Below, piece by piece: positions 2,406 to 51,439 of a stretch of 59,990 nt of DNA. The stretch lies in NCBI GenBank assembly GCA_019695375.1, contig JAIBAC010000003.1, forward strand, positions 1 through 59,990, read 5' to 3'. A model generated the notes under the pieces. The model did not search any database. It saw only the letters and a program-made list of their open reading frames with translations, and was not told the DNA's origin. Within the stretch, counting starts at the first letter, position 1, and each line of letters opens with the position of its first letter. A program made the translations under genes and the position numbers. Source of the stretch: Acidimicrobiia bacterium (GTDB taxonomy: Bacteria > Actinomycetota > Acidimicrobiia > UBA2766).

Positions 2406-2510
2406 TCTCGGCGCGGACAGAGACGCGAACCCCCGTCTCGGCGCGGGCCGGGCATCATGGTGCCGCCTGCGCGCCGAGACGTGTGGGGGCGTCCACGTGC
2501 GCGCCGAGAC
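2406..2510. repeat. Nested-palindrome REP-like element, family B
   Basis: TCTCGGCGCG at 2406 and 2436, inverse CGCGCCGAGA at 2470 and 2500, central GGCATC-AT-GGTGCC hairpin; intergenic downstream of katG. Confidence 0.75.
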
Positions 2511-2535: not shown

Positions 2536-5731
<3,196 letters not shown>

Positions 5732-29775: not shown

Positions 29776-29893
29776 TCGGCCCACTAGGAGAGACACCTGA
29801 CTGGAGGTCTGTGGTTTTGTGAGAGCCAGTTTGACATGCCGATTTCTGTCGTAACTAGGCGTTTCTGTCACAGGTGGTTTGTATCGTAGTGCC

Positions 29894-31060
29894 ATGGCCG
29901 AGTACGCCGAACTGCAGACACTCTTCGACACCCTCACACCAGCGCAGAAGACCGACCTCTACAACCAGATCGAAGGCCGCGAGTCATTCCTGCAAGCCTG
30001 CAAAGCCACCCTCCTCGCACCCATAGCGTCCACCGAGGAACACATCGCCGACGGCGCCCGCACCATCGCCGACTGGATCGCCACAACCGGCCGCCACCAC
30101 AGCAACCACGCCCACCAGATCGCCGACGTCGCCGAAGCCATGACCGAACTCCCCGCCATCTGGGCCCGATTCGCCGACGGCGAGCTGTCCTTCGACCAGA
30201 CCTACGAGCTCTCACGATTCGTCACCACCGAAACCGACACCCACTGGGCCGAACACGCACCCGCACTCTCAGCCAACGCCCTACGACGCCACGCCACCAA
30301 ACACCGGCCCAAAGACGACGACCCCGACCCCACCCCCAAACCCAACCGCGTCCACATCGAACACGACCACGACGGCCGCGGCGGACACATCTCAGCCCAC
30401 TTCGACACCACCTCCCTCGCCCGCATCGAAGCCGCCCTCACCCGCCAAGCAGACCGCTACAGCCCCGACCCCGACACCGCCGAACCCATCCCGCGACGCG
30501 AACGTCTCGCCCGAGCGCTCCACGACCTCGTCACTGCCGCCAAACCCTCCACATGGGCCGACCGCGCCACCATGGTCGTCCACACCACCCTCGACACCCT
30601 CGCCCGCCTCGAAGACACCGACGCCACCGTCGACCTGCCCTTCCCCGCCTGGATCAGCGCCGAACAAGCACGACACCTCGCCAACACCGCCCGGCTCGAA
30701 GTCAGCCTCGACGACCCCTGCGGACGCCCGATCGGCATCGGCCGCACCTCACGCAACTGGCCCCCACACGTGTACCGCCGCATCGCCGAACGCGATGGGA
30801 CATGCCGCTGGCCGGGGTGCAACAACACCATCGGCCTCCAGGTCCACCACGAACCACCCCTCCCCGAGGGCCCGACCGACACCGAACACGGCATCCTGCT
30901 CTGTGTCCACCACCACGACAACCGCACCACCAAAGGCTTCCGCATCAGCGGCAACCCCGAACACCAACTCCACTTCTACAGACCCGACGGCACCCCCATC
31001 GGCACCACCCGACCACCCCTACACCCCGACAACCAACACCTCTACGACAACCCCGACTAG
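29894..31060 (+). CDS. DUF222/13E12-repeat HNH endonuclease
   Basis: RDGTCRWPGC, QVHH, LLCVHHH; strongly C/A-rich coding strand typical of the family. Confidence 0.85.
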   Translation: MAEYAELQTLFDTLTPAQKTDLYNQIEGRESFLQACKATLLAPIASTEEHIADGARTIADWIATTGRHHSNHAHQIADVAEAMTELPAIWARFADGELSFDQTYELSRFVTTETDTHWAEHAPALSANALRRHATKHRPKDDDPDPTPKPNRVHIEHDHDGRGGHISAHFDTTSLARIEAALTRQADRYSPDPDTAEPIPRRERLARALHDLVTAAKPSTWADRATMVVHTTLDTLARLEDTDATVDLPFPAWISAEQARHLANTARLEVSLDDPCGRPIGIGRTSRNWPPHVYRRIAERDGTCRWPGCNNTIGLQVHHEPPLPEGPTDTEHGILLCVHHHDNRTTKGFRISGNPEHQLHFYRPDGTPIGTTRPPLHPDNQHLYDNPD

Positions 31061-41334: not shown

Positions 41335-41799
41335 ATGGCCGAGCCCGAGATGATGACCCTCGACGTGTCCGATTGGGCGAGCGGCGACGCCCTCGACCTC
41401 GCCGACCTGCGCGGACGCGTTGTCGTGATCGAGACGTTCCAGATGCTCTGCCCCGGCTGCATCAGTCACGGCCTCCCCCAGGCGCGGCGCGTCCACCGCG
41501 CCTTCGCGCGTGACCAGGTCGTGGTGCTCGGCCTGCACACCGTCTTCGAGCACCACGACGTGATGGGGCCCGACGCCCTGAGGGTCTTCCTCCACGAGTA
41601 CGCGATCGAGTTCCCGGTCGCGATCGACCGCCACGTCGACGGCGACGCGATCCCGGCCACGATGGCGCGCTACGGGCTGCGCGGCACACCGTCGACGCTG
41701 CTCGTCGACCGCGGCGGGCGCCTCCGCCACAGCTTCTTCGGCGCTCAGGACGACCTCGTCCTCGGCGCGCACATCGGCAAGCTCCTCACCGAGTCGTGA
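41335..41799 (+). CDS. Redoxin/thioredoxin-fold protein
   Basis: FQMLCPGC, LGLHTVFEHH, GTPS. Confidence 0.85.
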   Translation: MAEPEMMTLDVSDWASGDALDLADLRGRVVVIETFQMLCPGCISHGLPQARRVHRAFARDQVVVLGLHTVFEHHDVMGPDALRVFLHEYAIEFPVAIDRHVDGDAIPATMARYGLRGTPSTLLVDRGGRLRHSFFGAQDDLVLGAHIGKLLTES

Positions 41800-42392
41800 G
41801 CGAGGCTGCAGGCGGCGACCGCCCCGCGGCACTTGCGGCCAGGGTGGGCGCCGCGCTCGAGCGCCTCGGCCGTGCCCGCCGCATCCACCGCCAGGGCGTC
41901 GCGACAGCTCATGGACTGACACCGTTGCAGCTCGACCTGCTCGCGACGCTCGCCGACGGGCCCCCACCCCTCCCCTACGTCGGCGAGCTAGCCGCGGAGC
42001 TCGGGGTGGCCCAGCCGACCGTCACCGACTCGCTCAACGCACTGGTGCGCAAGGGCCTTGTTCGGCGCCGTCGCGACGACGCCGACGCGCGCCGCTCTCT
42101 GCTCACATTGACCCGCGGCGGCGACCGTGTGGTCGCCGAGATCCGCCGCGTCGATGCCGACGTCGCGTGTGCCGTCGAGGCCCTACCCGCGCCGGTGCAA
42201 GCTGCCACGCTCGAGGCGCTCCTCACGGTCCTCGCCGGCCTCGTCGATGCCGGCACCGTCACCGTCGCGCGGACCTGCTTCACGTGCCGCCACCATCGCC
42301 AGCGTGGCGCCGCACATCGCTGCGCACTCCTCGACTGCGCGCTCCCGTCGAGCGAGCTCCGCGTCAACTGCCCCGAGCACGAGCCCGTCTGA
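41796..42392 (+). CDS. MarR family regulator with Cys-rich C-terminus
   Basis: LAAELGVAQPTVTDSL, DARRS; tail CFTC..C..C..NCPEH. Confidence 0.85.
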   Translation: MSEAAGGDRPAALAARVGAALERLGRARRIHRQGVATAHGLTPLQLDLLATLADGPPPLPYVGELAAELGVAQPTVTDSLNALVRKGLVRRRRDDADARRSLLTLTRGGDRVVAEIRRVDADVACAVEALPAPVQAATLEALLTVLAGLVDAGTVTVARTCFTCRHHRQRGAAHRCALLDCALPSSELRVNCPEHEPV

Positions 42393-42477: not shown

Positions 42478-43080
42478 GTGTTCGCGCAGGTCATAACCGC
42501 CCAGGTGACCGACGAGGAGGGCCTCCGCCGCCAGGTGCAGCGCTGGCATGACGAGATCCGCCCGGGCGCCTCCGGATACCTGGGGACCACGGGCGGGATC
42601 ACCGACGACGGCAAGCTCGTGGTGATGATCCGCTTCGCCACCGAGGACGACGGGCGCCGCAACAGCGACCGGCCCGAGCAGGGCGCGTGGTGGGCCGAGA
42701 CCGAGAAGTGCCTCGCCGGCGTCGCGTTCGCCAACGCCGCCGACGTGATCACCGGCGGCGACGGCGGCTCCGACGACGCCGGCTTCGTCCAGGTCATGCG
42801 GGGTCGCATAACCGACGCCGCCGCCTACGACAAGGTTCTGGCGCAGATGGACGACTTCGCCGAGACCATGAAGGAGTTCCGTCCCGACGTCCTCGGCATG
42901 GTCACGGTCCGCATCGACGACGGCACCTACTTCGACTTCGCCTACTTCAGCTCCGAGGCGGAGGCGCGCGCCGGCGAGTCCAAGGAGATGCCCGCGGACG
43001 TGCAGGCGCAGATGGAACAGGCGATGGCTGCCTCCACCCTCGACGAGTACCTCGACCTGAAGGACCCCTGGCTGTTCTGA
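42478..43080 (+). CDS. Hypothetical protein with internal two-fold repeat (ABM-like)
   Basis: Halves MFAQVI...RFATEDDGR and FVQVM...YFSSEAEAR. Confidence 0.7.
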   Translation: MFAQVITAQVTDEEGLRRQVQRWHDEIRPGASGYLGTTGGITDDGKLVVMIRFATEDDGRRNSDRPEQGAWWAETEKCLAGVAFANAADVITGGDGGSDDAGFVQVMRGRITDAAAYDKVLAQMDDFAETMKEFRPDVLGMVTVRIDDGTYFDFAYFSSEAEARAGESKEMPADVQAQMEQAMAASTLDEYLDLKDPWLF

Positions 43081-43090
43081 CGCCGCAGGC

Positions 43091-43191
43091 TTGGATAACG
43101 ATCCGGCCAGCTGGGGGGTTGGATAACCAGGACGCGCAAAAGCGCGCCTCTCGTCATCCAACGTCACTCAGGTGGCCGGTCTGTTATCCAA
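43091..43191. repeat. Nested-palindrome REP-like element, family A, copy 1
   Basis: TTGGATAAC at 43091 and 43119; GTYATCCAA ending 43161 and 43191; central CGCGC-AAAA-GCGCG. Confidence 0.88.
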
Positions 43192-43206
43192 CGCAGGGCG
43201 GGTGGT

Positions 43207-45381
43207 TCAGAGGTCGACGTCGACACTGACCGCGTCTGGGTCGGATGCGTGGCGGGCGACCGTGAAACGGTGCCGGCCGGCCGCGGGTGTCCAGGCACGC
43301 CGCTGCGGGTCGCGCGTGGCGAGGCGGTCGAGCGGCACGACGACTTCGAAGCGGACCTCTTCGTGCGCGGGGACCTCCACGCGGGCGAACCCGACCAGGC
43401 GCGGCGGCGCGTCGGGATCGGGAAGGGCGGCGTAGACCTGCACGACGTCGGCGCCGTCACGGTCGCCGGTGTTGCGCACAACACCTCGCGCTACGACCGC
43501 ACCGCCCGCAGCCGTGACCTCCACTCCGGCGAGCGCGAACGTCGTGTACGAGAGGCCGAACCCGAACGGGAACGCCGCCGCCGTGGCGTTGCGGGCGAGG
43601 TGCCACCACCCGTGCCAGCGGTCGTAGCGGAACGAGGTGGCGTCGCGGTCGAAGGGCGGCAGGTCGGCCTCGTCCGCGGGGACGCTGAACGGCAGCCGCG
43701 CCGACGGGTTGACAGCACCGGCGAGCACGTCGGCGAGTCCCGGCCCGGCCTCGGCACCGCCGTACCACGCCTGCACGACGGCGGGAACGGCGTCCACCCA
43801 CTCCGACGCGACCACGGCGCTGCCCGCCTGCAGGACCACGACGGTGCGCGGGTTGGCGGCGGCGACGGCGCGCACGAGCGCCACATCTTCATCTGGGAGG
43901 CGCAGGGATCCGCGGTCGCCGCCGACCGCGAAGCCGGCAGGCCGTTCGGCGACCCGGGGCGGCTTCACCGTCTCCGGCAACGACGCCAACCAGGCGCCGA
44001 AGCGCTCGGCTTCGGCGGGATCGTCCTCGCCGGGGAAGAGGCTCGACAGCGCCGGGTCGGGTGTCCCGATGAACTCGCCCTCGTCGAGGAACGTGTAGCC
44101 GGCGACGACGACGGCGACGTCGGCCCCCGCGGCGACGGCGGCGGCACGCTCGGGGTCGCTGCCGTCGTCGTATGAGACGTGCGCCCACCGCGCCTCGATC
44201 CCGTCGAGGACCGTGGCGCAGTCGAGGTCCCACACGTCGCTGGAGCCGGCGTCGCCGAGGTTGACGCTGCCAGCGAGGCGACCAACCACCGCGACCGACG
44301 CACCATCGTCGATAGGCAGGACCGGCACGCCATCTACGGCCTCGTTGCGAAGGAGCACGACCGAGCGTGCGGCGACCTCGCGTGCGAGCTCTCGATGCTG
44401 CGGCGCGCCGAGCACCCCGGCACCGGCAGCCGGGGCCGACAGGACGTCGTCGAAGCGCAGCAGCGTCGCGACCATGCGCGTTGCGCTGCGGTCGACATCG
44501 TCCCAGGACACGTCGCCGCGCTCCAGCGCCGCAGGCAGATGGCGAGCGCGCACCATGCGGTAGGGCATCTCGACGTCGAGGCCGGCACGCAGCGACTGCG
44601 CGGCGTCACGCAGGCCGAAGATCCAGTCGCTGATCACGAGCCCGCCGAAGCCCCACTCGTCGCGCAGGACCCCGGTGAGGAGGTCGCCGTTCTGGCCGCA
44701 CCAGTCGCCGTTGACGCTGTTGTACGCGGACATGACCGCGGCGACACCCTCGTCCACGATCCGCTTGAACTGCGGTAGGTAGACCTCGTGCAGGGCGACG
44801 TCGTCGACCTCGACGTCGACCGTGAAGCGGGCGTTCTCCATCGAGTTGCACGCGAAGTGCTTCACACACGCCATCACGTGGCGCTGCAGGCCGCGGGTGA
44901 AGGCGGCGCCGAGCTCGCCGACGTGGTGGGGGTCCTCGCCGTAGGTCTCCTGCGCGCGGCCCCACGCCGGGTGACGCAGGACGTTGACGCAGACCGCCCC
45001 TGTCAGGTTGGCGCCGGCGGCGCGCAGCTCGGCGCCGATCGCGTCGCCGACACGCTCCTCGAGCGCGGGATCCCACGTGGCGCCGCGGGCCATCGCGACC
45101 GGGAAGCACGTCGCGTTGCCGACCACGGCGCCGCGGGGCCCGTCGCTGAAGCGGATCCCGCCGACGCCGACGCGCTCGATCTCACCCGCGACGAAGGGCG
45201 CCTTGTGGTAGCCGTCCTCGGCGAGGAACGCGATCCCCGCCCACGTCGGCGCGTCGCCGTCGAGGCACCAGAGCCGCTCCTCCGGTGTGAGCTGCGCGAC
45301 GAGCGCACGTGCCGCCGCGTCGACCGGTGTCCCCGCCGCGACCGCTGCGCGGGCGTCGTCGAAGCTGCCGATGTCGCTCAT
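43207..45381 (-). CDS. Glycoside hydrolase family 3 beta-glucosidase
   Basis: SDGPRG, WGRAQETYGEDP, CVKHFA, VISDW; real start MSDIGS. Confidence 0.92.
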   Translation of the reverse strand: MSDIGSFDDARAAVAAGTPVDAAARALVAQLTPEERLWCLDGDAPTWAGIAFLAEDGYHKAPFVAGEIERVGVGGIRFSDGPRGAVVGNATCFPVAMARGATWDPALEERVGDAIGAELRAAGANLTGAVCVNVLRHPAWGRAQETYGEDPHHVGELGAAFTRGLQRHVMACVKHFACNSMENARFTVDVEVDDVALHEVYLPQFKRIVDEGVAAVMSAYNSVNGDWCGQNGDLLTGVLRDEWGFGGLVISDWIFGLRDAAQSLRAGLDVEMPYRMVRARHLPAALERGDVSWDDVDRSATRMVATLLRFDDVLSAPAAGAGVLGAPQHRELAREVAARSVVLLRNEAVDGVPVLPIDDGASVAVVGRLAGSVNLGDAGSSDVWDLDCATVLDGIEARWAHVSYDDGSDPERAAAVAAGADVAVVVAGYTFLDEGEFIGTPDPALSSLFPGEDDPAEAERFGAWLASLPETVKPPRVAERPAGFAVGGDRGSLRLPDEDVALVRAVAAANPRTVVVLQAGSAVVASEWVDAVPAVVQAWYGGAEAGPGLADVLAGAVNPSARLPFSVPADEADLPPFDRDATSFRYDRWHGWWHLARNATAAAFPFGFGLSYTTFALAGVEVTAAGGAVVARGVVRNTGDRDGADVVQVYAALPDPDAPPRLVGFARVEVPAHEEVRFEVVVPLDRLATRDPQRRAWTPAAGRHRFTVARHASDPDAVSVDVDL

Positions 45382-45438
45382 GGATCGGTCCCGTGCCTCT
45401 GGTTTGGGGTCCTGTCCCCGCCCGGACAGACTTAGGGT

Positions 45439-46638
45439 ATGGCATCGCTGTTCGACACCGTGGAGCTGGGACCGCTCACGCTGCGGAACCGGGTGGTCAA
45501 GGCGGCGACGTTCGAGGGGTACTCGCCCGGCGGTGCCGTCACCGACGACCTCGTGGAGTTCCACCGCCGTGTCGCCGCCGGGGGCGCGGCGCTGACGACC
45601 GTCGCGTACCTGTCCGTAGCGCCCGAGGGTCGTACAGACGACGGCTGCATCGTCGTGGTGCCGAGCGCCGTCGCCGGCCTGCGGCACATCACCGACGCCG
45701 TCCACGCCGAGGGCGGCGCTGCCGCCGCGCAGATCGGCCACGCCGGGCCGGTCGCGAACGCGGCGTCGAACAAGGCGCAGGCGATCGCACCCGGACGCTT
45801 CTTCAACCCGCTGGGGATGCGCCGCACGAGAGCGGCGACCGAGTACGACATCGCCCGCATCACGTCCGACTACCGCCGCAGCGCGAGGCTCTGCGTCGAC
45901 GCCGGCTTCGACTCCCTCGAGATCCACCTCGGCCACAACTACCTGTTGAGCTCGTTCCTGAGCCCGATGCTGAACAGGCGCAAGGACGCCTGGGGGGGAG
46001 CGCTCGAGCACAGGGCGCGCTTCGCCCGCGAGGTGGCGATCGCGGTGCGCGACGCGGTCGGCTCCGCGGTCGCGGTGACGGCCAAGCTCAACATGGAGGA
46101 CGGTTACCGGGGCGGGTTCGGCATCGACGAGTCGGTGCAGGTCGCGCGCTGGCTCGAGGCCGACGGCGCCCTCGACGCGCTCGAGCTCACCGGGGGCAGC
46201 TCGCTCATGAACCCCATGTTCCTGTTCAAGGGCGACGCCCCCACGCCCGAGTTCGCAGCCACGTTGCCGTGGCACCTGCGGGCCGGGTTCCGCCTCTTCG
46301 GCAAGGGCTTCCTGCGCTCCTACCCCTACGAGGAGGCGTACTTCCTCGCCGATGCGCTGCGCTTCCGCGAGGCGGTGCGGATGCCGCTCGTGCTCCTCGG
46401 CGGGATCAGCCGCCTCGACACCGCGCAGAAGGGCATCGACGCAGGGTTCGAGTTCGTGGCCATGGGTCGTGCGCTCCTGCACGACCCGGACCTGATCAAC
46501 GACTGGCGGGCCGGGGTCTCCGACGCGTCCGGGTGCATCCACTGCAACCGCTGCATGCCGACGATCTACACGGGGACGCGCTGTCCCCTCGTCGACCCCC
46601 GCCCCGGCGACCGTCCCATCGAGGTCCCCGCCGGCTGA
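45439..46638 (+). CDS. NADH:flavin oxidoreductase (old yellow enzyme family)
   Basis: LRNRVVKAATFEG, QIGHAG, EIHLGHNYLLSSFLSP, CIHCNRC. Confidence 0.9.
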   Translation: MASLFDTVELGPLTLRNRVVKAATFEGYSPGGAVTDDLVEFHRRVAAGGAALTTVAYLSVAPEGRTDDGCIVVVPSAVAGLRHITDAVHAEGGAAAAQIGHAGPVANAASNKAQAIAPGRFFNPLGMRRTRAATEYDIARITSDYRRSARLCVDAGFDSLEIHLGHNYLLSSFLSPMLNRRKDAWGGALEHRARFAREVAIAVRDAVGSAVAVTAKLNMEDGYRGGFGIDESVQVARWLEADGALDALELTGGSSLMNPMFLFKGDAPTPEFAATLPWHLRAGFRLFGKGFLRSYPYEEAYFLADALRFREAVRMPLVLLGGISRLDTAQKGIDAGFEFVAMGRALLHDPDLINDWRAGVSDASGCIHCNRCMPTIYTGTRCPLVDPRPGDRPIEVPAG

Positions 46639-46654
46639 TCCCGCGGCACCTGGC

Positions 46655-46756
46655 TTGGATGACGATCCGGCCACAACGCCGGGCTTGGATAACCAGAGCG
46701 CGCAAAAGCGCGCCTCTCGTCATCCAGCGTGACCAGCTGGCCGGTCTGTTATCCAA
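46655..46756. repeat. Nested-palindrome REP-like element, family A, copy 2
   Basis: Near-identical to 43091-43191, same orientation; GCGCGC-AAAA-GCGCGC core. Confidence 0.88.
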
Positions 46757-46803: not shown

Positions 46804-49377
46804 ATGGAGGACCCGACGAGCGGCTCGACGCACATCCGCACGCCCGACCAGCGCCTCCGGGTGTTCGTGAGCTCCACGCTGGCGGAGCTCGCCCCCGAGC
46901 GCGCCGCCGCCAAGGACGCGATCGAGCGCCTCCACTTCATCCCGGTCATGTTCGAGCTCGGCGCGCGGCCGCACCCGCCCAAGCAGCTCTACCGCGCCTA
47001 CCTGGACCAGAGCCACGTCTTCGTCGGCCTCTACTGGGAACGCTACGGCTGGGTCGCCCCGGGCGAGTCGGTGAGCGGCCTCGAGGACGAGTTCCTGCTC
47101 TCTGCCGGCATGCCGCGGCTCATGTACCTCAAGACGCCGGCGGCGGGACGCGAGGAGCGCCTGAGCGAGATGCTCGACCGCCTCTCGCAGTCCGGTGAGG
47201 TCTCGTACCGGAGCTTCTCGACGCCGGAGGAGCTCGCCGAGCTGCTCGAGGCCGACCTCGCGATCCTCGTGACCGAGCGCTTCCAGAGCCCCGGCGAGAT
47301 CGCTGCGGACCGCGCGGCCGGCGCCCCGGCCACTGCAACGGCGTTGCCGATACCGCCCACGCCGACGGTCGGTCGCGGCGCCGACATCGACGCAGTCACC
47401 GCGCTGCTCGCGTCGGGCTGTCGCATCGTGACCGTGAGTGGACCTGGCGGCGTCGGCAAGACGAGGGTCGCCGTCGAGGTCGCGCGGCGCATCGCGAGCG
47501 GCGACCGGCGGGTCTGCTACGTGGCGCTGGGCTCGGTCACCGATCCCGCACTCGTGCTCCCCGCCATCGCCGACGCGCTCGGCGTGACGGTCGAGAGATC
47601 CGAGCCCGTCATGGACGCTCTCGTTGCCGATCTCGCGGTCGCGCCGGCGTTGATCGTGGTCGACAACTTCGAGCAGCTCGCCGACGCGGCCGGGAACCTC
47701 GCCGAGCTCGCCGCGGCATGTGGGGACACGCAGTTCCTGGTCACGAGCCGCCATGTGCTGCACCTGCGCGGCGAGCGCGAGTACCAGCTCGCCCCGCTGG
47801 AGGTCCCCGCTGGCCGGCACAGCAGCGGCCTCACCGACGTCTCGGCCTCGCCGGCCGTGGAGCTCTTCGTGTCGGAAGCGTCGGCCGCACGCCCGGGCTT
47901 CGAGCTGACCGAGGACAACGCCTCCGCTGTCGCCGAGCTCGTGCGCCGCCTCGACGGACTGCCCCTCGCACTCGAGCTCGTGGCTGCCCGGATCCGGCTC
48001 CTACCGCCGTCGGCGATGCTGACCCGCCTCGGCGACCGCATCGACTTCCTGACGAGCGGGGCCGCGGACCTGCCCGAGCGCCAGCGGACGCTGCGAGCGA
48101 CACTGGACTGGAGCCACAGCCTTCTCGACGAGTCCGAACGTGCCCTGTTCGCCCGTCTCGCGGTGTTCGTGGGCGGTGCCGACATCGAGGCGGTCGAGGC
48201 GGTCTGCGCCGGTGCACCCGTCGGCGACGTCCTCGAGACCCTCGCCTCCCTCCTCGAGAAGAGCCTGCTCACGACCCTCGACGACGCCGGCATCATGCCG
48301 CGGGTGGGGATGCTGCACACAGTGCATGCATACGCCGCGGAGCAGCTCGGCGCGCGCGGTGAGCTGCTCGAGGTGCGGGCGCGCCACTTCGACTGGTACT
48401 GCCGGCTCGCCCTCTCCGCGGACGCCGCCCGAGTCGAGACCGCCCTGGAGCGCTGGCCCATGCTGGACGCCGAGGCCGCCAACATCCGCGCGGCCCTCGA
48501 GCACGGCTTCGAGGTCGACGACTACGAATCACTCGCTTCGTTCCTCAACTCCCTCTGGTCCTGGTACTGGCTGCGGGGCCACATAGCCGAAGGCCGGGTG
48601 TGGATCGAGAAGCTCGCCGGACACTGCCCGCCCGGCATGTCCGACGAGGCACGCATGAAGGTCCTCGTGGCGCTGACTGCGGCACGGTTCACCGCGGGGG
48701 CTTTCGACGAGGCGGCCGCATGCGTGGACGAGGCACGGCGGCTCGCACGCGCCGTCGGCGACGGAGCGGGGATCGGCGCGGCAGCGCTGCTCACCGCGAT
48801 CCTGGCACCGTTCGGGGACCACGCTGCGGAGGCGTACGACGCGGCGCTCGAGGCCGAGGACGAGTACCGCCGCAACGGCCCGTCCTGGGCGCTCGCCTAC
48901 GCGCTCAGCATCAGAGGGTTCCTCGAGACCGTGCGCGGCGACCTCGTGGCAGGCCGCAGGACCCAGGAGGAGAGCATCGCGATCTCCGCGCGGCTCGGCC
49001 TCGACTACCTCGTGGCCCAGGGGAACCACCAGATCGCACTCGTCGAGCTCGCGGAAGGCGACCTCGAAGCAGCACACGCGCGCATCCGTGTATCGGTGCC
49101 CCTGCTACGGAAGAGCAGGGACCTCGAAGGCGCTTCCTATGCCCTCGAGGTCTGTGCTCTCCTGGCGGTTGCGGAGGACCGTCCCTGCGACACGGTCCGC
49201 CTCTTCGCCGCGGCCGACGCGGTGCGCGAGCGCATCGGCACGCGGGCCTGGCCGTCGTTCCAGGCCCAGCGCGAGGCGATACTCGCCGGGCTCAGGGAGC
49301 AGCTCGGGGAGACCGCCTACGAATCCGCGATGCGTGAAGGTGCCGAGGGCGACCCCTTCGCCCTCCTCGAACCTTGA
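46804..49377 (+). CDS. DUF4062 + STAND/NB-ARC-type ATPase + TPR protein
   Basis: RVFVSST..EL..ER, YLDQSHVFVGLYWERYG; GPGGVGKT, IVVDNFEQ, VTSR, GLPLALEL; helical C-terminus. Confidence 0.85.
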   Translation: MEDPTSGSTHIRTPDQRLRVFVSSTLAELAPERAAAKDAIERLHFIPVMFELGARPHPPKQLYRAYLDQSHVFVGLYWERYGWVAPGESVSGLEDEFLLSAGMPRLMYLKTPAAGREERLSEMLDRLSQSGEVSYRSFSTPEELAELLEADLAILVTERFQSPGEIAADRAAGAPATATALPIPPTPTVGRGADIDAVTALLASGCRIVTVSGPGGVGKTRVAVEVARRIASGDRRVCYVALGSVTDPALVLPAIADALGVTVERSEPVMDALVADLAVAPALIVVDNFEQLADAAGNLAELAAACGDTQFLVTSRHVLHLRGEREYQLAPLEVPAGRHSSGLTDVSASPAVELFVSEASAARPGFELTEDNASAVAELVRRLDGLPLALELVAARIRLLPPSAMLTRLGDRIDFLTSGAADLPERQRTLRATLDWSHSLLDESERALFARLAVFVGGADIEAVEAVCAGAPVGDVLETLASLLEKSLLTTLDDAGIMPRVGMLHTVHAYAAEQLGARGELLEVRARHFDWYCRLALSADAARVETALERWPMLDAEAANIRAALEHGFEVDDYESLASFLNSLWSWYWLRGHIAEGRVWIEKLAGHCPPGMSDEARMKVLVALTAARFTAGAFDEAAACVDEARRLARAVGDGAGIGAAALLTAILAPFGDHAAEAYDAALEAEDEYRRNGPSWALAYALSIRGFLETVRGDLVAGRRTQEESIAISARLGLDYLVAQGNHQIALVELAEGDLEAAHARIRVSVPLLRKSRDLEGASYALEVCALLAVAEDRPCDTVRLFAAADAVRERIGTRAWPSFQAQREAILAGLREQLGETAYESAMREGAEGDPFALLEP

Positions 49378-49814: not shown

Positions 49815-49842
49815 TTGACATACAACCGATCGGTTGTATAAT
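49815..49842 (+). promoter_or_regulatory. Consensus sigma70-type promoter with perfect 20-bp palindromic operator
   Basis: TTGACA 49815-20, N16, TATAAT 49837-42; ATACAACCGATCGGTTGTAT 49820-39; GTG at 49848 suggests leaderless mRNA. Confidence 0.82.
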
Positions 49843-49847
49843 TTGGT

Positions 49848-50198
49848 GTGACTGGTGCCGACGAAGACGACGACCGGGCCGACGCCCTGTTCCATGCCCT
49901 CGCCGACCGCACCCGCCGCGACATCATGCGTCGGGTTCTGGTCGGCGAGCACTCGGTCTCGGCTCTCGCGGCGAACTACGACATGTCGTTCGCCGCGGTG
50001 CAGAAGCATGTCGCCGTGCTCGAACGCGCCGGTCTGCTCACGAAGCGACGCAACGGCCGCGAGCAGCTCGCCCACGGCGAGGTGGACGCGGTCCGCTCCG
50101 TGGCTTCGATGCTCGCCGACCTCGAGGATGTGTGGCGTGGCCGCATCGCCCGGATCGACGAGCTCATCGGCAAGGACCCGAACCCGGAACAGGAGTAG
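49848..50198 (+). CDS. ArsR family regulator
   Basis: FHALADRTRRDI, SFAAVQKHVAVLERAGL. Confidence 0.9.
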   Translation: MTGADEDDDRADALFHALADRTRRDIMRRVLVGEHSVSALAANYDMSFAAVQKHVAVLERAGLLTKRRNGREQLAHGEVDAVRSVASMLADLEDVWRGRIARIDELIGKDPNPEQE

Positions 50199-50202
50199 CC
50201 CA

Positions 50203-50691
50203 GTGCCCGTCACCGACGTCGAGACCGACATCGACAACCGCACCCTCACCATCACCGCCGAGTTCGCGGCGCCGCCCGAGAGGATCTGGCAGGTCTACGC
50301 GGACCCGCGCCAGCTAGAACAGGTCTGGGGCCCACCCACGCACCCGGCGACCTTCGTCGACCACGACCTCCGCCCCGGCGGCCGTGCCCACTACTACATG
50401 ACCTCGCCCGAGGGTGAGAAGTACTACGGATGGTGGGCGATCGTCTCGGTCGACGAGCCCAAGGGGTTCACCTTCGAGGACGGCTTCGCGGCCGACGACT
50501 CCTTCGAGGCGGCACCGGGCATGCCGGTGTCGCACAACGACTACGCCTTCGAGCCCACCGGCGCCGGCACCCGCGCCGTGTTCACGAGCACCTTCGACTC
50601 CGCCGAGGGACTCCAGCAGGTGCTCGAGATGGGCGTCGTCGAAGGGGCCACGACCGCCATCAACCAGATCGACGCCCTCGTGGCGTCCTGA
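50203..50691 (+). CDS. SRPBCC/Aha1 domain protein
   Basis: AEFAAPPERIWQ, WGPPTHPAT, MGVVEG. Confidence 0.88.
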   Translation: MPVTDVETDIDNRTLTITAEFAAPPERIWQVYADPRQLEQVWGPPTHPATFVDHDLRPGGRAHYYMTSPEGEKYYGWWAIVSVDEPKGFTFEDGFAADDSFEAAPGMPVSHNDYAFEPTGAGTRAVFTSTFDSAEGLQQVLEMGVVEGATTAINQIDALVAS

Positions 50692-50693
50692 GG

Positions 50694-50715
50694 TTGGATG
50701 ACAGACCGGCCAGCT
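50694..50715. repeat. Truncated family A repeat arm (copy 3, reverse orientation)
   Basis: TTGGATGACAGACCGGCCAGCT matches the reverse complement of the copy 2 right arm at 21 of 22 positions. Confidence 0.7.
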
Positions 50716-50736: not shown

Positions 50737-51321
50737 CTAGTCGGGGACGAGCGTGCGCTTCAGATGCGCCGTGTAGCGCCGCAGCACATCCGGATCGTCG
50801 GGCGGGTACATGCTCCTAATACGCCAGTAACCGATGAACGCCGTGTAGGTGAGCTCGGCGCGGCTGTGGGCCTCCGTCTTGCTCAGACCTGCCTTTCGGT
50901 ACAGCCGGGCAAACAGGTCCACCTTGCGCAGGACATGCCCGAGGGCGTACGGCGACACGAGCGGGTCGGCACCCGCGGCACAGATGCCGGCGTAGAGCTT
51001 CCCGGCCTCGTAGTCCCCGAACATCTCGTCCAGCAACCGTCTCAGCGCATCGCGAGCCTCGATGCCGTCGGGCAACACCTCGTCGACGTGTGCGATGTCG
51101 CGTGCCTCCCAGCGGCTGAGTGCCGCGTCGACGAGCTCGTCGCGATTGGAGAAGTGGGCATAGAAGCTGCCCTTGGTCACTTCGAGGTGCTCCGCCAGTC
51201 GCTCGACAGCGACGCCCTCGAGCCCGTCGTCACGCATCGCGTCCAAGGCCGCATCGACCCAGTCCTCGCTGGACAGGCGGCGCTTCTTGACGTTCGTCGG
51301 CGGAATCGCGGGTCTCCTCAC
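50737..51321 (-). CDS. TetR family regulator
   Basis: LSSEDWVDAAL, VAVERLAEHLEVTKGSFYAHF; GTG start inferred. Confidence 0.88.
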   Translation of the reverse strand: MRRPAIPPTNVKKRRLSSEDWVDAALDAMRDDGLEGVAVERLAEHLEVTKGSFYAHFSNRDELVDAALSRWEARDIAHVDEVLPDGIEARDALRRLLDEMFGDYEAGKLYAGICAAGADPLVSPYALGHVLRKVDLFARLYRKAGLSKTEAHSRAELTYTAFIGYWRIRSMYPPDDPDVLRRYTAHLKRTLVPD

Positions 51322-51350
51322 TCGTCCCGAGGCGACGCGGCAGCGAGAAG

Positions 51351-51412
51351 TATACGGTGCCGCATCCTCCACTCCAGTTGCATACGCTTGCGTATCAATG
51401 CGGTATCGTATG
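51351..51412. promoter_or_regulatory. CATACG-N4-CGTATG-like boxes (putative TetR operators)
   Basis: 51351-66, and abutting 51381-96 and 51397-412. Confidence 0.7.
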
Positions 51413-51439
51413 TCCACTGGGAGCGGCGTAGGGGGCGCG

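What the first reader, a model, noticed from the sequence alone, without database searches (positions are those of the whole stretch)
43091..46756. Repeated ~101-bp nested-palindrome element (TTGGATRAC x2, hairpin, GTYATCCAA x2)
Seen: two near-identical copies (43091-43191, 46655-46756), each 10-16 nt after a stop codon. Each has 19-bp terminal inverted repeats (16/19 match in copy 1), an inner inverted pair, a GCGC-AAAA-GCGC core and ~28-30 nt between half-sites; linkers between half-sites vary. A third truncated arm is at 50694. The A/T-rich half-sites stand out in this genome. Inference: a REP/BIME- or MITE-like family recognised by a dedicated protein, or an RNA cruciform affecting 3' mRNA stability. 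No cognate enzyme is in the window.
Basis: partly seen in the sequence, partly recalled or inferred. Interest (0 to 1): 0.7.

Follow-up and report, generated by a model that had tools for sequence, protein, structure and literature searches.

The report
Nested palindromic repeat family, Acidimicrobiia
The two ~101-bp nested palindromes are real and belong to a repeat family of roughly 25 scattered copies, found so far only in one uncultured wastewater actinobacterium; it resembles the REP/REPIN hairpin repeats of other bacteria, but the protein that would spread it has not been found.

Summary
Copy 1 (43091-43191) and copy 2 (46655-46756) are 87% identical. Each has four TTGGATRAC boxes arranged two direct then two inverted, and each folds into one long hairpin (z -5 to -9). 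A 23-nt solo arm lies at 50693-50715.

It is not a local duplication. In eight metagenomes from six studies, contigs with the same depth as the flanks pile up exactly on the element. The outer arms reach 8-14 times flank depth and the 43-nt inner hairpin 43-58 times. The inner figure is doubled, because assemblies break inside the core. This implies about 25 loci in the genome, about 10-14 of them nested, with differing flanks.

No real match was found in Rfam, 185,579 species genomes, JGI metagenome contigs, IMG/VR, plasmids or phages.

All three copies in the window start 2-16 nt after a stop codon. No U-tract follows them. No transposase or nuclease gene lies nearby.

The best reading is a lineage-specific REP/REPIN-like dispersed palindrome built as a hairpin within a hairpin.

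A second, unrelated-sequence family with the same layout (2406-2510) is also multicopy.

The parts
43091..43191 (+). Copy 1, the full nested element (101 nt). It fills most of the 126-nt gap between two convergent genes: an unknown 200-aa ORF whose stop ends at 43080, and a GH3 glycosidase on the - strand whose stop lies at 43207.
   Evidence: Pile-up boundaries fall at 43090/91 and about 43193.
43091..43109 (+). Left outer arm of copy 1: box TTGGATAAC, then GAT, then GC stem CCGGCCA.
   Evidence: It pairs with 43173-43191.
43119..43161 (+). Inner 43-nt hairpin unit of copy 1: box TTGGATAAC, CAGGA, CGCGC-AAAA-GCGCG, CCTCTC, box GTCATCCAA. This is the most abundant and most conserved part of the family.
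   Evidence: Depth is 43-58 times the flank here, against 8-14 times on the arms. Few variant positions were seen.
43173..43191 (+). Right outer arm of copy 1: TGGCCGG, then TCT, then box GTTATCCAA.
46655..46756 (+). Copy 2, the full nested element (102 nt), in the same orientation as copy 1. It starts 16 nt after the stop of the OYE-family oxidoreductase gene and ends 47 nt before the ATG of the DUF4062-STAND gene.
46685..46727 (+). Inner 43-nt hairpin unit of copy 2. Its right box is degenerate (GTCATCCAG; the family consensus has A at 46727).
50693..50715 (+). Solo outer arm (GTTGGATGACAGACCGGCCAGCT), of the AGA type. It starts 2 nt after the stop of the SRPBCC/AHSA1 gene, in a 45-nt gap before the convergent TetR gene. 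The rest of the element is absent.

Best explanation
These are copies of a lineage-specific, non-coding, dispersed palindromic repeat family of an uncultured wastewater/activated-sludge Acidimicrobiia. In function it is analogous to REP/REPIN/BIME elements.

The basic unit is a hairpin of about 43 nt. It has a 9-bp box helix (TTGGATRAC paired with GTYATCCAA), a small conserved asymmetric internal loop, and a short GC stem closed by a tetraloop. In about half of the loci this unit sits at the apex of a second hairpin of about 58 nt built to the same plan: the same box, a GAT/TCT internal loop, and a CCGGCCA/TGGCCGG stem. That gives the 101-nt four-box 'hairpin in hairpin', which is then copied as one unit.

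Shown:
- the architecture and its folding potential;
- about 25 loci with different flanks in one genome;
- boxes and core conserved while linkers vary;
- placement just after stop codons;
- restriction to this lineage.

Inferred:
- A dedicated protein acting in trans recognises the box helix and internal loop, probably on folded single-stranded DNA or an extruded cruciform. It would be a nuclease or transposase with a RAYT-like role, though not necessarily a RAYT.
- Nesting arises because new units land at, or are templated from, the apex of an existing hairpin.
- As a side effect, the transcribed hairpins act as 3'-end barriers or stabilisers for the upstream mRNAs.
For: - Box enrichment: 8 found against 0.16 expected.
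- Two 87%-identical copies plus a solo arm.
- Strong single long hairpin on both strands, z -5 to -9.
- Copy number: Logan contigs with the same depth as the flank pile up only on the element in X1, X5, X6, X9 and X8, X9, X16, X18.
  - In X9 the flank is 64, the arms about 730-915 and the core about 3,050-3,350.
  - In X1 the values are 13, about 140-166 and about 520-595.
  - 39-50 contigs were laid per run. Own-locus contigs end at 43162 and restart at 43136, and all 21 contigs carrying the upstream gene stop in the core. Each locus therefore counts twice in the core, giving about 25 loci.
- Loose ends before position 43091 disagree with one another (agreement 0.5-0.6), so the flanks are different loci.
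- Single-contig snippets show variant arms, variant inner stems that still pair, and inner units without outer arms.
- Six of seven single-sequence 5' flanks carry a stop triplet within 20 nt. The background rate is 0.20 per 20-mer.
- No Rfam family matches.
- No real match in genome contigs, metagenome contigs, viral contigs, plasmids or phages.
- A second family with unrelated boxes but the same layout is also multicopy.
Against: - No cognate enzyme was seen. The window's only mobile-type gene is a DUF222(-HNH) gene 12 kb away with no copies beside it.
- No presence/absence polymorphism or excision joint appeared at the three sites in eight DNA runs. Mobility is therefore inferred from dispersal alone.
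- Copies differ by about 7-14%, so there has been no recent burst.
- The copy number (about 25) is low for classical REPs.
- There is no GTAG/CGTC head.
- A possible target-site duplication (GCAGG) flanks copy 1 only.
- Copy numbers rest on summed contig depths, not on a closed genome.
Confidence: 0.68

Rival explanations
1. The primary function is at the RNA level. The family would be a set of U-tract-less (bidirectional) terminators or 3'-UTR stabilising hairpins. It would be kept by selection after stop codons and spread only incidentally.
For: - All three copies in the window lie 2-16 nt after stop codons, two of them between convergent genes.
- Stop triplets are enriched in the flanks of other copies.
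- Both strands form very stable hairpins.
- RNA-run contigs contain the element. Own-locus RNA contigs end at 43081 and 43085 in two runs.
Against: - No T/U run follows the hairpin on either strand, and the scan flags no terminator there.
- An RNA function does not explain four conserved, relatively A/T-rich boxes, the conserved mismatched internal loops, or solo arms.
- The RNA data have depth 3-7, carry no strand information and may include DNA carry-over.
- This reading is not exclusive of the main one: REPs also stabilise mRNA.
Confidence: 0.15
2. The elements are clustered double-stranded DNA binding sites, with four boxes about three helical turns apart. They would serve a chromosome-organising or regulatory protein, like the matS/SBS/Ter type of dispersed sites, rather than a mobile repeat.
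For: - Four copies of one 9-mer are spaced 28-30 nt apart.
- The boxes are the best conserved parts.
- The copy number, in the tens, resembles that of known chromosome-organising sites.
Against: - The palindromic symmetry extends well beyond the boxes into GC stems whose sequence varies but still pairs (snippets).
- The whole 100-nt unit, linkers included, is copied at 86-93% identity.
- Truncated arms and solo inner units exist.
- A second family has the same geometry but unrelated boxes.
Confidence: 0.08
3. The elements are attC-like recombination sites marking gene cassettes. The GH3+OYE segment lies between copies 1 and 2, and the STAND+SRPBCC segment between copy 2 and the solo arm. A site-specific recombinase would act on folded hairpins.
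For: - Copies 1 and 2 are direct repeats at the 3' ends of genes and bracket a 3.46-kb two-gene segment.
- Each hairpin has a box helix, an unpaired spacer and a second helix, like the R box, UCS and L box of attC.
- The boxes end in ...TAAC and begin with GTTA....
Against: - The core sites match RYYYAAC and GTTRRRY at only 5 of 7 positions each.
- The segments between copies are large, hold two genes and include housekeeping-type genes.
- No integrase lies in the annotated neighbourhood (about 29-53 kb of the window).
- The copies are dispersed, not arrayed: contigs up to 8-12 kb adjoin single copies.
- No cassette-sized skips appear in any run.
Confidence: 0.04

Closest known systems
REP / REPIN elements with their RAYT transposase (E. 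coli, Pseudomonas; Nunvar 2010, PMC2817692; Bertels & Rainey 2011, from my own knowledge)
   Same: Short extragenic imperfect palindromes with a conserved head and a variable but pairing stem. Inverted units form one long hairpin that is copied as a unit. They lie after stop codons and between convergent genes. One genome can hold several families.
   Different: - The head is TTGGATRAC, not GTAG/CGTC.
- There are about 25 copies, not hundreds.
- Each side carries two direct boxes (nested, two direct then two inverted).
- The host is a high-GC Acidimicrobiia.
BIMEs (bacterial interspersed mosaic elements, E. coli)
   Same: A composite of several REP-like motifs joined by semi-conserved linkers, about 100 nt long and extragenic.
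   Different: BIME motifs alternate in orientation (head-to-head, then tail-to-tail). Here the order is two direct then two inverted, giving a single nested hairpin.
MITEs such as Correia/NEMIS elements (Neisseria) or ERIC/IRU
   Same: 100-150-nt non-coding elements with terminal inverted repeats of 19-26 nt. They are dispersed, often transcribed into hairpins, and truncated copies occur.
   Different: - There is no consistent target-site duplication.
- No parent IS with the same ends is known.
- No insertion polymorphism was seen.
- The terminal box is repeated internally.
Integron attC sites
   Same: Imperfect palindromes at the 3' ends of genes. When folded they show a box helix, an unpaired spacer, a second helix and a variable apex. 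Asymmetry is conserved between the two strands.
   Different: - The core-site consensus is not met.
- There is no integrase and no array.
- The intervening segments are not cassette-like.
43-75-nt hairpin repeats of Acidimicrobiia that earlier agents of this scan reported as bracketing an AbiEi-DUF559 nuclease gene (unpublished AI notes)
   Same: The same class of host. The inner unit is 43 nt. Placement is just behind stop codons, or even supplies them. Several families occur per genome.
   Different: The sequence is different and the architecture is nested with four boxes. The link to a nuclease gene could not be tested for this family.

Membership tests
REP/REPIN-RAYT | Conserved GTAG or CGTC tetranucleotide heading a 20-40-nt imperfect palindrome | tested here: not met
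   The head is TTGGATRAC. No GTAG/CGTC occurs at the unit ends.
REP/REPIN-RAYT | Inverted doublets that fold into one long hairpin and are copied as a unit | tested here: met
   Single long hairpin, z -5 to -9. Full-length copies elsewhere show about 86-93% identity.
REP/REPIN-RAYT | A RAYT (HUH Y1 transposase) gene flanked by copies of the repeat | not testable with these tools
No such gene lies in the annotated neighbourhood of the copies.
REP/REPIN-RAYT | High copy number (usually more than 100 per genome), extragenic | tested here: inconclusive
   The extragenic part is met. Copy number is estimated at only about 25, from summed contig depths.
BIME | REP motifs in regularly alternating orientation | tested here: not met
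   The order is direct, direct, inverted, inverted.
MITE | Terminal inverted repeats | tested here: met
   16/19 matches in copy 1. The arm is conserved over 19-23 nt in five arms.
MITE | Target-site duplication of fixed length | tested here: inconclusive
   GCAGG flanks copy 1 on both sides. Copy 2 has nothing comparable. Both flanks of other copies could not be obtained.
MITE | Presence/absence polymorphism, or an autonomous IS sharing the ends | tested here: not met
   No skip joints appear at the element in eight DNA runs. The arm pattern has no real match in viral contigs, and the full element has none in plasmids or phages. The organism's whole genome was not searchable.
Integron attC | R''/R' core sites RYYYAAC and GTTRRRY, arrayed next to intI | tested here: not met
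   GGATAAC and GTTATCC match at 5 of 7 positions each. No integrase lies in the annotated neighbourhood. The copies are dispersed.
Intrinsic (Rho-independent) terminator | GC-rich hairpin followed by a T/U tract | tested here: not met
   The scan reports no terminator at any copy, and no T run follows the hairpin.
Any Rfam family | Covariance-model match at the gathering score | tested here: not met
   No hit over the whole window. In the E-value scan run on copy 1, only chance hairpin matches to miRNA models appeared, far below gathering.
Acidimicrobiia hairpin repeat + AbiEi-DUF559 (earlier notes of this scan) | Two inverted copies bracket a wHTH-DUF559 nuclease gene | not testable with these tools
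No DUF559 gene lies in the annotated neighbourhood. Size class and placement after stop codons are met.

The most novel reading that the evidence does not exclude
The four-box nested palindromes may be substrates of an undescribed, non-HUH repeat-plus-enzyme system of Acidimicrobiia. The AbiEi-DUF559 nucleases flagged elsewhere in this scan are one candidate enzyme. One genome would keep several orthogonal enzyme/repeat pairs: the TTGGATRAC family, the TCTCGGCGCG family and the 62-64-nt families. The enzyme would read a 9-10-bp box helix plus an asymmetric internal loop on folded DNA. New units would be deposited at hairpin apices and directly behind stop codons, sometimes supplying the stop codon.
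Probability: 0.17. Interest if true: 0.75.

Novelty: new variant of a known kind. Interest (0 to 1): 0.45.

Why it matters
Small dispersed palindromes (REP, REPIN, BIME) are well studied in Proteobacteria, where they are tied to a domesticated transposase. In high-GC Actinomycetota they are almost undescribed.

Here one uncultured but globally recurring sludge bacterium carries at least two unrelated-sequence families built to the same hairpin-in-hairpin, four-box plan. This suggests a shared generating mechanism whose recognition code (box, internal loop, stem) can be worked out.

There are practical consequences too.
- The repeats break every short-read assembly of this organism at the element core.
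- They sit at gene 3' ends, where they may set transcript boundaries.

Finding the protein that reads the box would show whether REP-like systems evolved independently of RAYTs.

Tried and rejected

**Pattern scans of public collections.**
- Arm plus inner box: 0 hits in genome contigs and metagenome contigs.
- Three-box pattern: 17 hits in unrelated taxa, all tandem repeats or chance.
- Core pattern in metagenomes: 7 chance hits.
- Arm pattern in viral contigs: 1 chance hit inside a coding region.
- Plasmids and phages: nothing.

**Synteny.** The nearest OYE orthologues (78-81% aa) sit in different neighbourhoods and have no TTGGATRAC element downstream.

**Strain polymorphism.** None was seen. 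All joints listed had short sides of 20-29 nt and look like noise.

**Metatranscriptomes.** Depth was only 3-7, with no strand information, so they are inconclusive for termination.

**Walking along Logan contigs.** Every contig stops in the element core.

**Literature.**
- Box sequence: only primers turned up.
- REPIN + RAYT + Actinobacteria: no paper.
- General palindrome terms: nothing specific.

**Energy scan for long hairpins.** It does not discriminate in 70% GC DNA.

**Readings rejected.**
- Local duplication only.
- DnaA box: TTATCCAAC matches TTATCCACA at 7 of 9 positions but lacks the critical CACA end (my own knowledge).
- Classical intrinsic terminator.
Full report
**1. Observation**

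Copy 1 (43091-43191) reads TTGGATAAC-GAT-CCGGCCA-(linker)-TTGGATAAC-CAGGA-CGCGC-AAAA-GCGCG-CCTCTC-GTCATCCAA-(linker)-TGGCCGG-TCT-GTTATCCAA. Copy 2 (46655-46756) has the same order and orientation.

- TTGGATRAC occurs 8 times in the 59,990-base, 70.7% GC window. Shuffles give 0.16, and never more than 2.
- The copies are 87% identical over about 106-108 nt.
- A 23-nt solo arm at 50693-50715 is 96% complementary to the right arm of copy 2.
- Each copy folds into a single long hairpin on either strand: -55 to -66 kcal/mol as RNA, z -5.2 to -9.1, with no shuffle as stable. DNA parameters give the same shape.

**2. Gene context**

The order of features is:
- MarR regulator, 41796-42392;
- unknown 200-aa ORF, 42478-43080 (+);
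- copy 1;
- GH3 glycosidase on the - strand, stop at 43207;
- OYE-family flavin oxidoreductase, 45439-46638 (+);
- copy 2;
- DUF4062-STAND NTPase, 46804-49377 (+);
- SRPBCC/AHSA1 protein, 49855-50691 (+);
- solo arm;
- TetR regulator, 50737-51417 (-).

All three copies start 2-16 nt after a stop codon, and two of them lie between convergent genes. No transposase, integrase or DUF559 gene lies in the annotated part of the window (about 29-53 kb). The only mobile-type gene there is a DUF222(-HNH) gene at 29879-31060, and it has no copies next to it.

**3. It is a dispersed family, not a local duplication**

The stretch is held at 88-99% of sampled words by 20 wastewater, activated-sludge and other metagenomes from eight studies. 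Earlier notes of this scan place the genome in uncultured Acidimicrobiia, and the closest named protein relatives agree.

I laid Logan contigs on copy 1 at 80% or higher likeness. Summed depth jumps exactly at 43090/91 and falls back at about 43193-43204.

| Run | Flank | Outer arms | Inner core |
|---|---|---|---|
| X1 | 13 | about 140-166 | about 520-595 |
| X9 | 64 | about 730-915 | about 3,050-3,350 |

X5 and X6 show the same shape. Copy 2 gives the same picture in X9, X8, X16 and X18.

The piled-up contigs have the same depth as the flank in every run: 10-14 in X1, 55-67 in X9, 29-40 in X5. They therefore belong to the same organism.

Own-locus contigs end at 43162 and restart at 43136. 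All 21 contigs on record that carry the upstream gene stop 82 nt after its stop codon. The core is thus an exact repeat that breaks the assembly graph, and each locus counts twice in the core. This gives about 22-29 loci with the inner 43-nt unit and about 8-14 with recognisable outer arms. The 39-50 contigs laid per run fit that estimate.

Loose ends before 43091 disagree with one another (agreement 0.5-0.6), so the flanks differ. Single-contig snippets show three kinds of variation:
- variant arms, for example TTGGATAAC-AGA-GCGGCCA and TCGGATAAC-GAC-GCGGCCA;
- variant inner stems that still pair, for example CAGGACG...CGTCCTG;
- inner units that abut unique sequence, with no outer arm.

At 46727 nearly all other copies carry A. 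The imperfect fourth box of copy 2 is therefore a private change.

**4. Conservation pattern**

- The boxes and the apical stem-loop are nearly invariant, while the linkers vary.
- The arms come in two fixed types: left is box-GAT-CCGGCCA, right is TGGCCGG-TCT-box. The same three mismatched positions recur in both copies, in the solo arm and in snippets, so the element has a defined polarity.
- Outer and inner hairpins share one design: a 9-bp box helix, a 3-6-nt asymmetric internal loop, then a 5-7-bp GC stem.

Together with the excess of inner units, this reads best as a 43-nt unit sitting at the apex of a 58-nt unit of the same family, with the composite then copied as a whole.

**5. Placement after stop codons**

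Besides the three verified cases in the window, three of the four other single-sequence 5' flanks carry a stop triplet within 20 nt of the box. The background is 0.20 per 20-mer in this window.

Some flanks resemble each other, stop included. TGA-CGCCGCAGGC, TAG-CGCCTCAC and TAA-CGCCGCAC form one group. TGA-TCCCGCGGCACC and TAG-TCCGCGCACC form another. In some subfamilies the repeated unit may therefore extend leftwards and supply the stop codon. This is only suggestive, because I could not read whole copies.

**6. Distribution**

- No Rfam family reaches the gathering score over the window. A permissive scan of copy 1 gave only chance matches to miRNA hairpin models.
- The arm-plus-box pattern has no match in 185,579 species genomes or in JGI metagenome contigs.
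- Looser patterns give only tandem repeats or chance hits in unrelated taxa.
- Viral contigs gave only one chance hit, and plasmids and phages gave nothing.
- The nearest OYE orthologues (78-81% aa) lie in other gene neighbourhoods without the element.
- Within the species I saw no presence/absence polymorphism or excision joint in eight runs.

**7. Function**

No T-tract follows the hairpin, and the terminator scan finds nothing at the copies. Sludge metatranscriptome contigs contain the element. In two runs the own-locus contig ends at 43081 and 43085. However, depth is only 3-7, contigs carry no strand, and DNA carry-over is possible. A terminator or stabiliser role is therefore neither shown nor excluded.

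**8. A second family**

The sequence at 2406-2510 is built as TCTCGGCGCG twice, then a central hairpin, then GCGCGCCGAGA twice. It has the same length, spacing and fold. It is also multicopy in contigs of the same depth: flank 61, arms 176-290, core 530-620 in X9. Two unrelated sequences sharing one geometry point to a common generating mechanism rather than chance.

**9. Interpretation**

The evidence supports a lineage-specific REP/REPIN-like dispersed palindrome. Dispersal, architecture, conservation and placement are shown. A trans-acting, box-reading enzyme and apex-directed nesting are inferred.

It fails the formal tests for:
- REP (no GTAG/CGTC head; RAYT not testable);
- BIME (orientation);
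- attC (core sites, integrase, arrays);
- intrinsic terminators (U-tract).

It meets only the TIR criterion for MITEs.

Earlier AI notes of this scan report that other Acidimicrobiia hairpin repeats bracket an AbiEi-DUF559 nuclease gene. That is a lead I could not test for this family. I found no publication describing it.

**10. Verdict**

This is a real, multicopy, apparently undescribed family and a new variant of a known kind of element. Interest is moderate, and it would rise if a dedicated non-RAYT enzyme is found.

Noticed in passing
window 2406-2510: A second nested palindrome family: TCTCGGCGCG twice, a central hairpin, then GCGCGCCGAGA twice. Its sequence is unrelated to the TTGGATRAC family, but its length (105 nt), 30-nt box spacing and fold are the same. 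It is also multicopy in contigs of the same depth: about 3-5 times the flank on the arms and 9-10 times in the core.
   Followed up: partly
window 49815-49842: A perfect sigma-70-type promoter (TTGACA, 16 nt, TATAAT; 12/12 matches). It overlaps a perfect 20-nt palindrome, ATACAACCGATCGGTTGTAT, just upstream of the SRPBCC/AHSA1 gene. This looks like a promoter with an embedded operator.
   Followed up: no
window 43136-43162 and 46697-46706: Every short-read (Logan) assembly of this organism breaks inside the element core. All 21 contigs on record that carry the upstream gene end 82 nt after its stop codon. The 3,571-nt contig between the two copies recurs in several runs.
   Followed up: yes
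window 43078-43090, 46636-46654 and flanks of other copies seen as loose ends: The 5' flanks of several copies resemble each other, stop codon included. One group is T(G/A)(A/G)-CGCC(G/T)CA..., another is T(G/A)(A/G)-TCC(C)GCG(G)CACC. In some subfamilies the repeated unit may extend leftwards and supply the stop codon of the upstream gene.
   Followed up: partly
The closest relative's contig (L140) has a DUF222 fragment directly upstream of its OYE orthologue.
   Followed up: no
window 46804-49377: A DUF4062 + STAND NTPase protein (857 aa), possibly a defence gene, lies between copy 2 and the solo arm. The right arm of copy 2 and the solo arm form a 23-nt inverted pair around this 3.9-kb segment. 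However, the boxes face inwards, so the pair does not form transposon-like ends.
   Followed up: partly
window 43204 -> 43115 (joint in runs X1, X5, X6): One contig, at the organism's depth, goes back 90 nt across the element. This suggests that another locus carries two element copies in close tandem.
   Followed up: no
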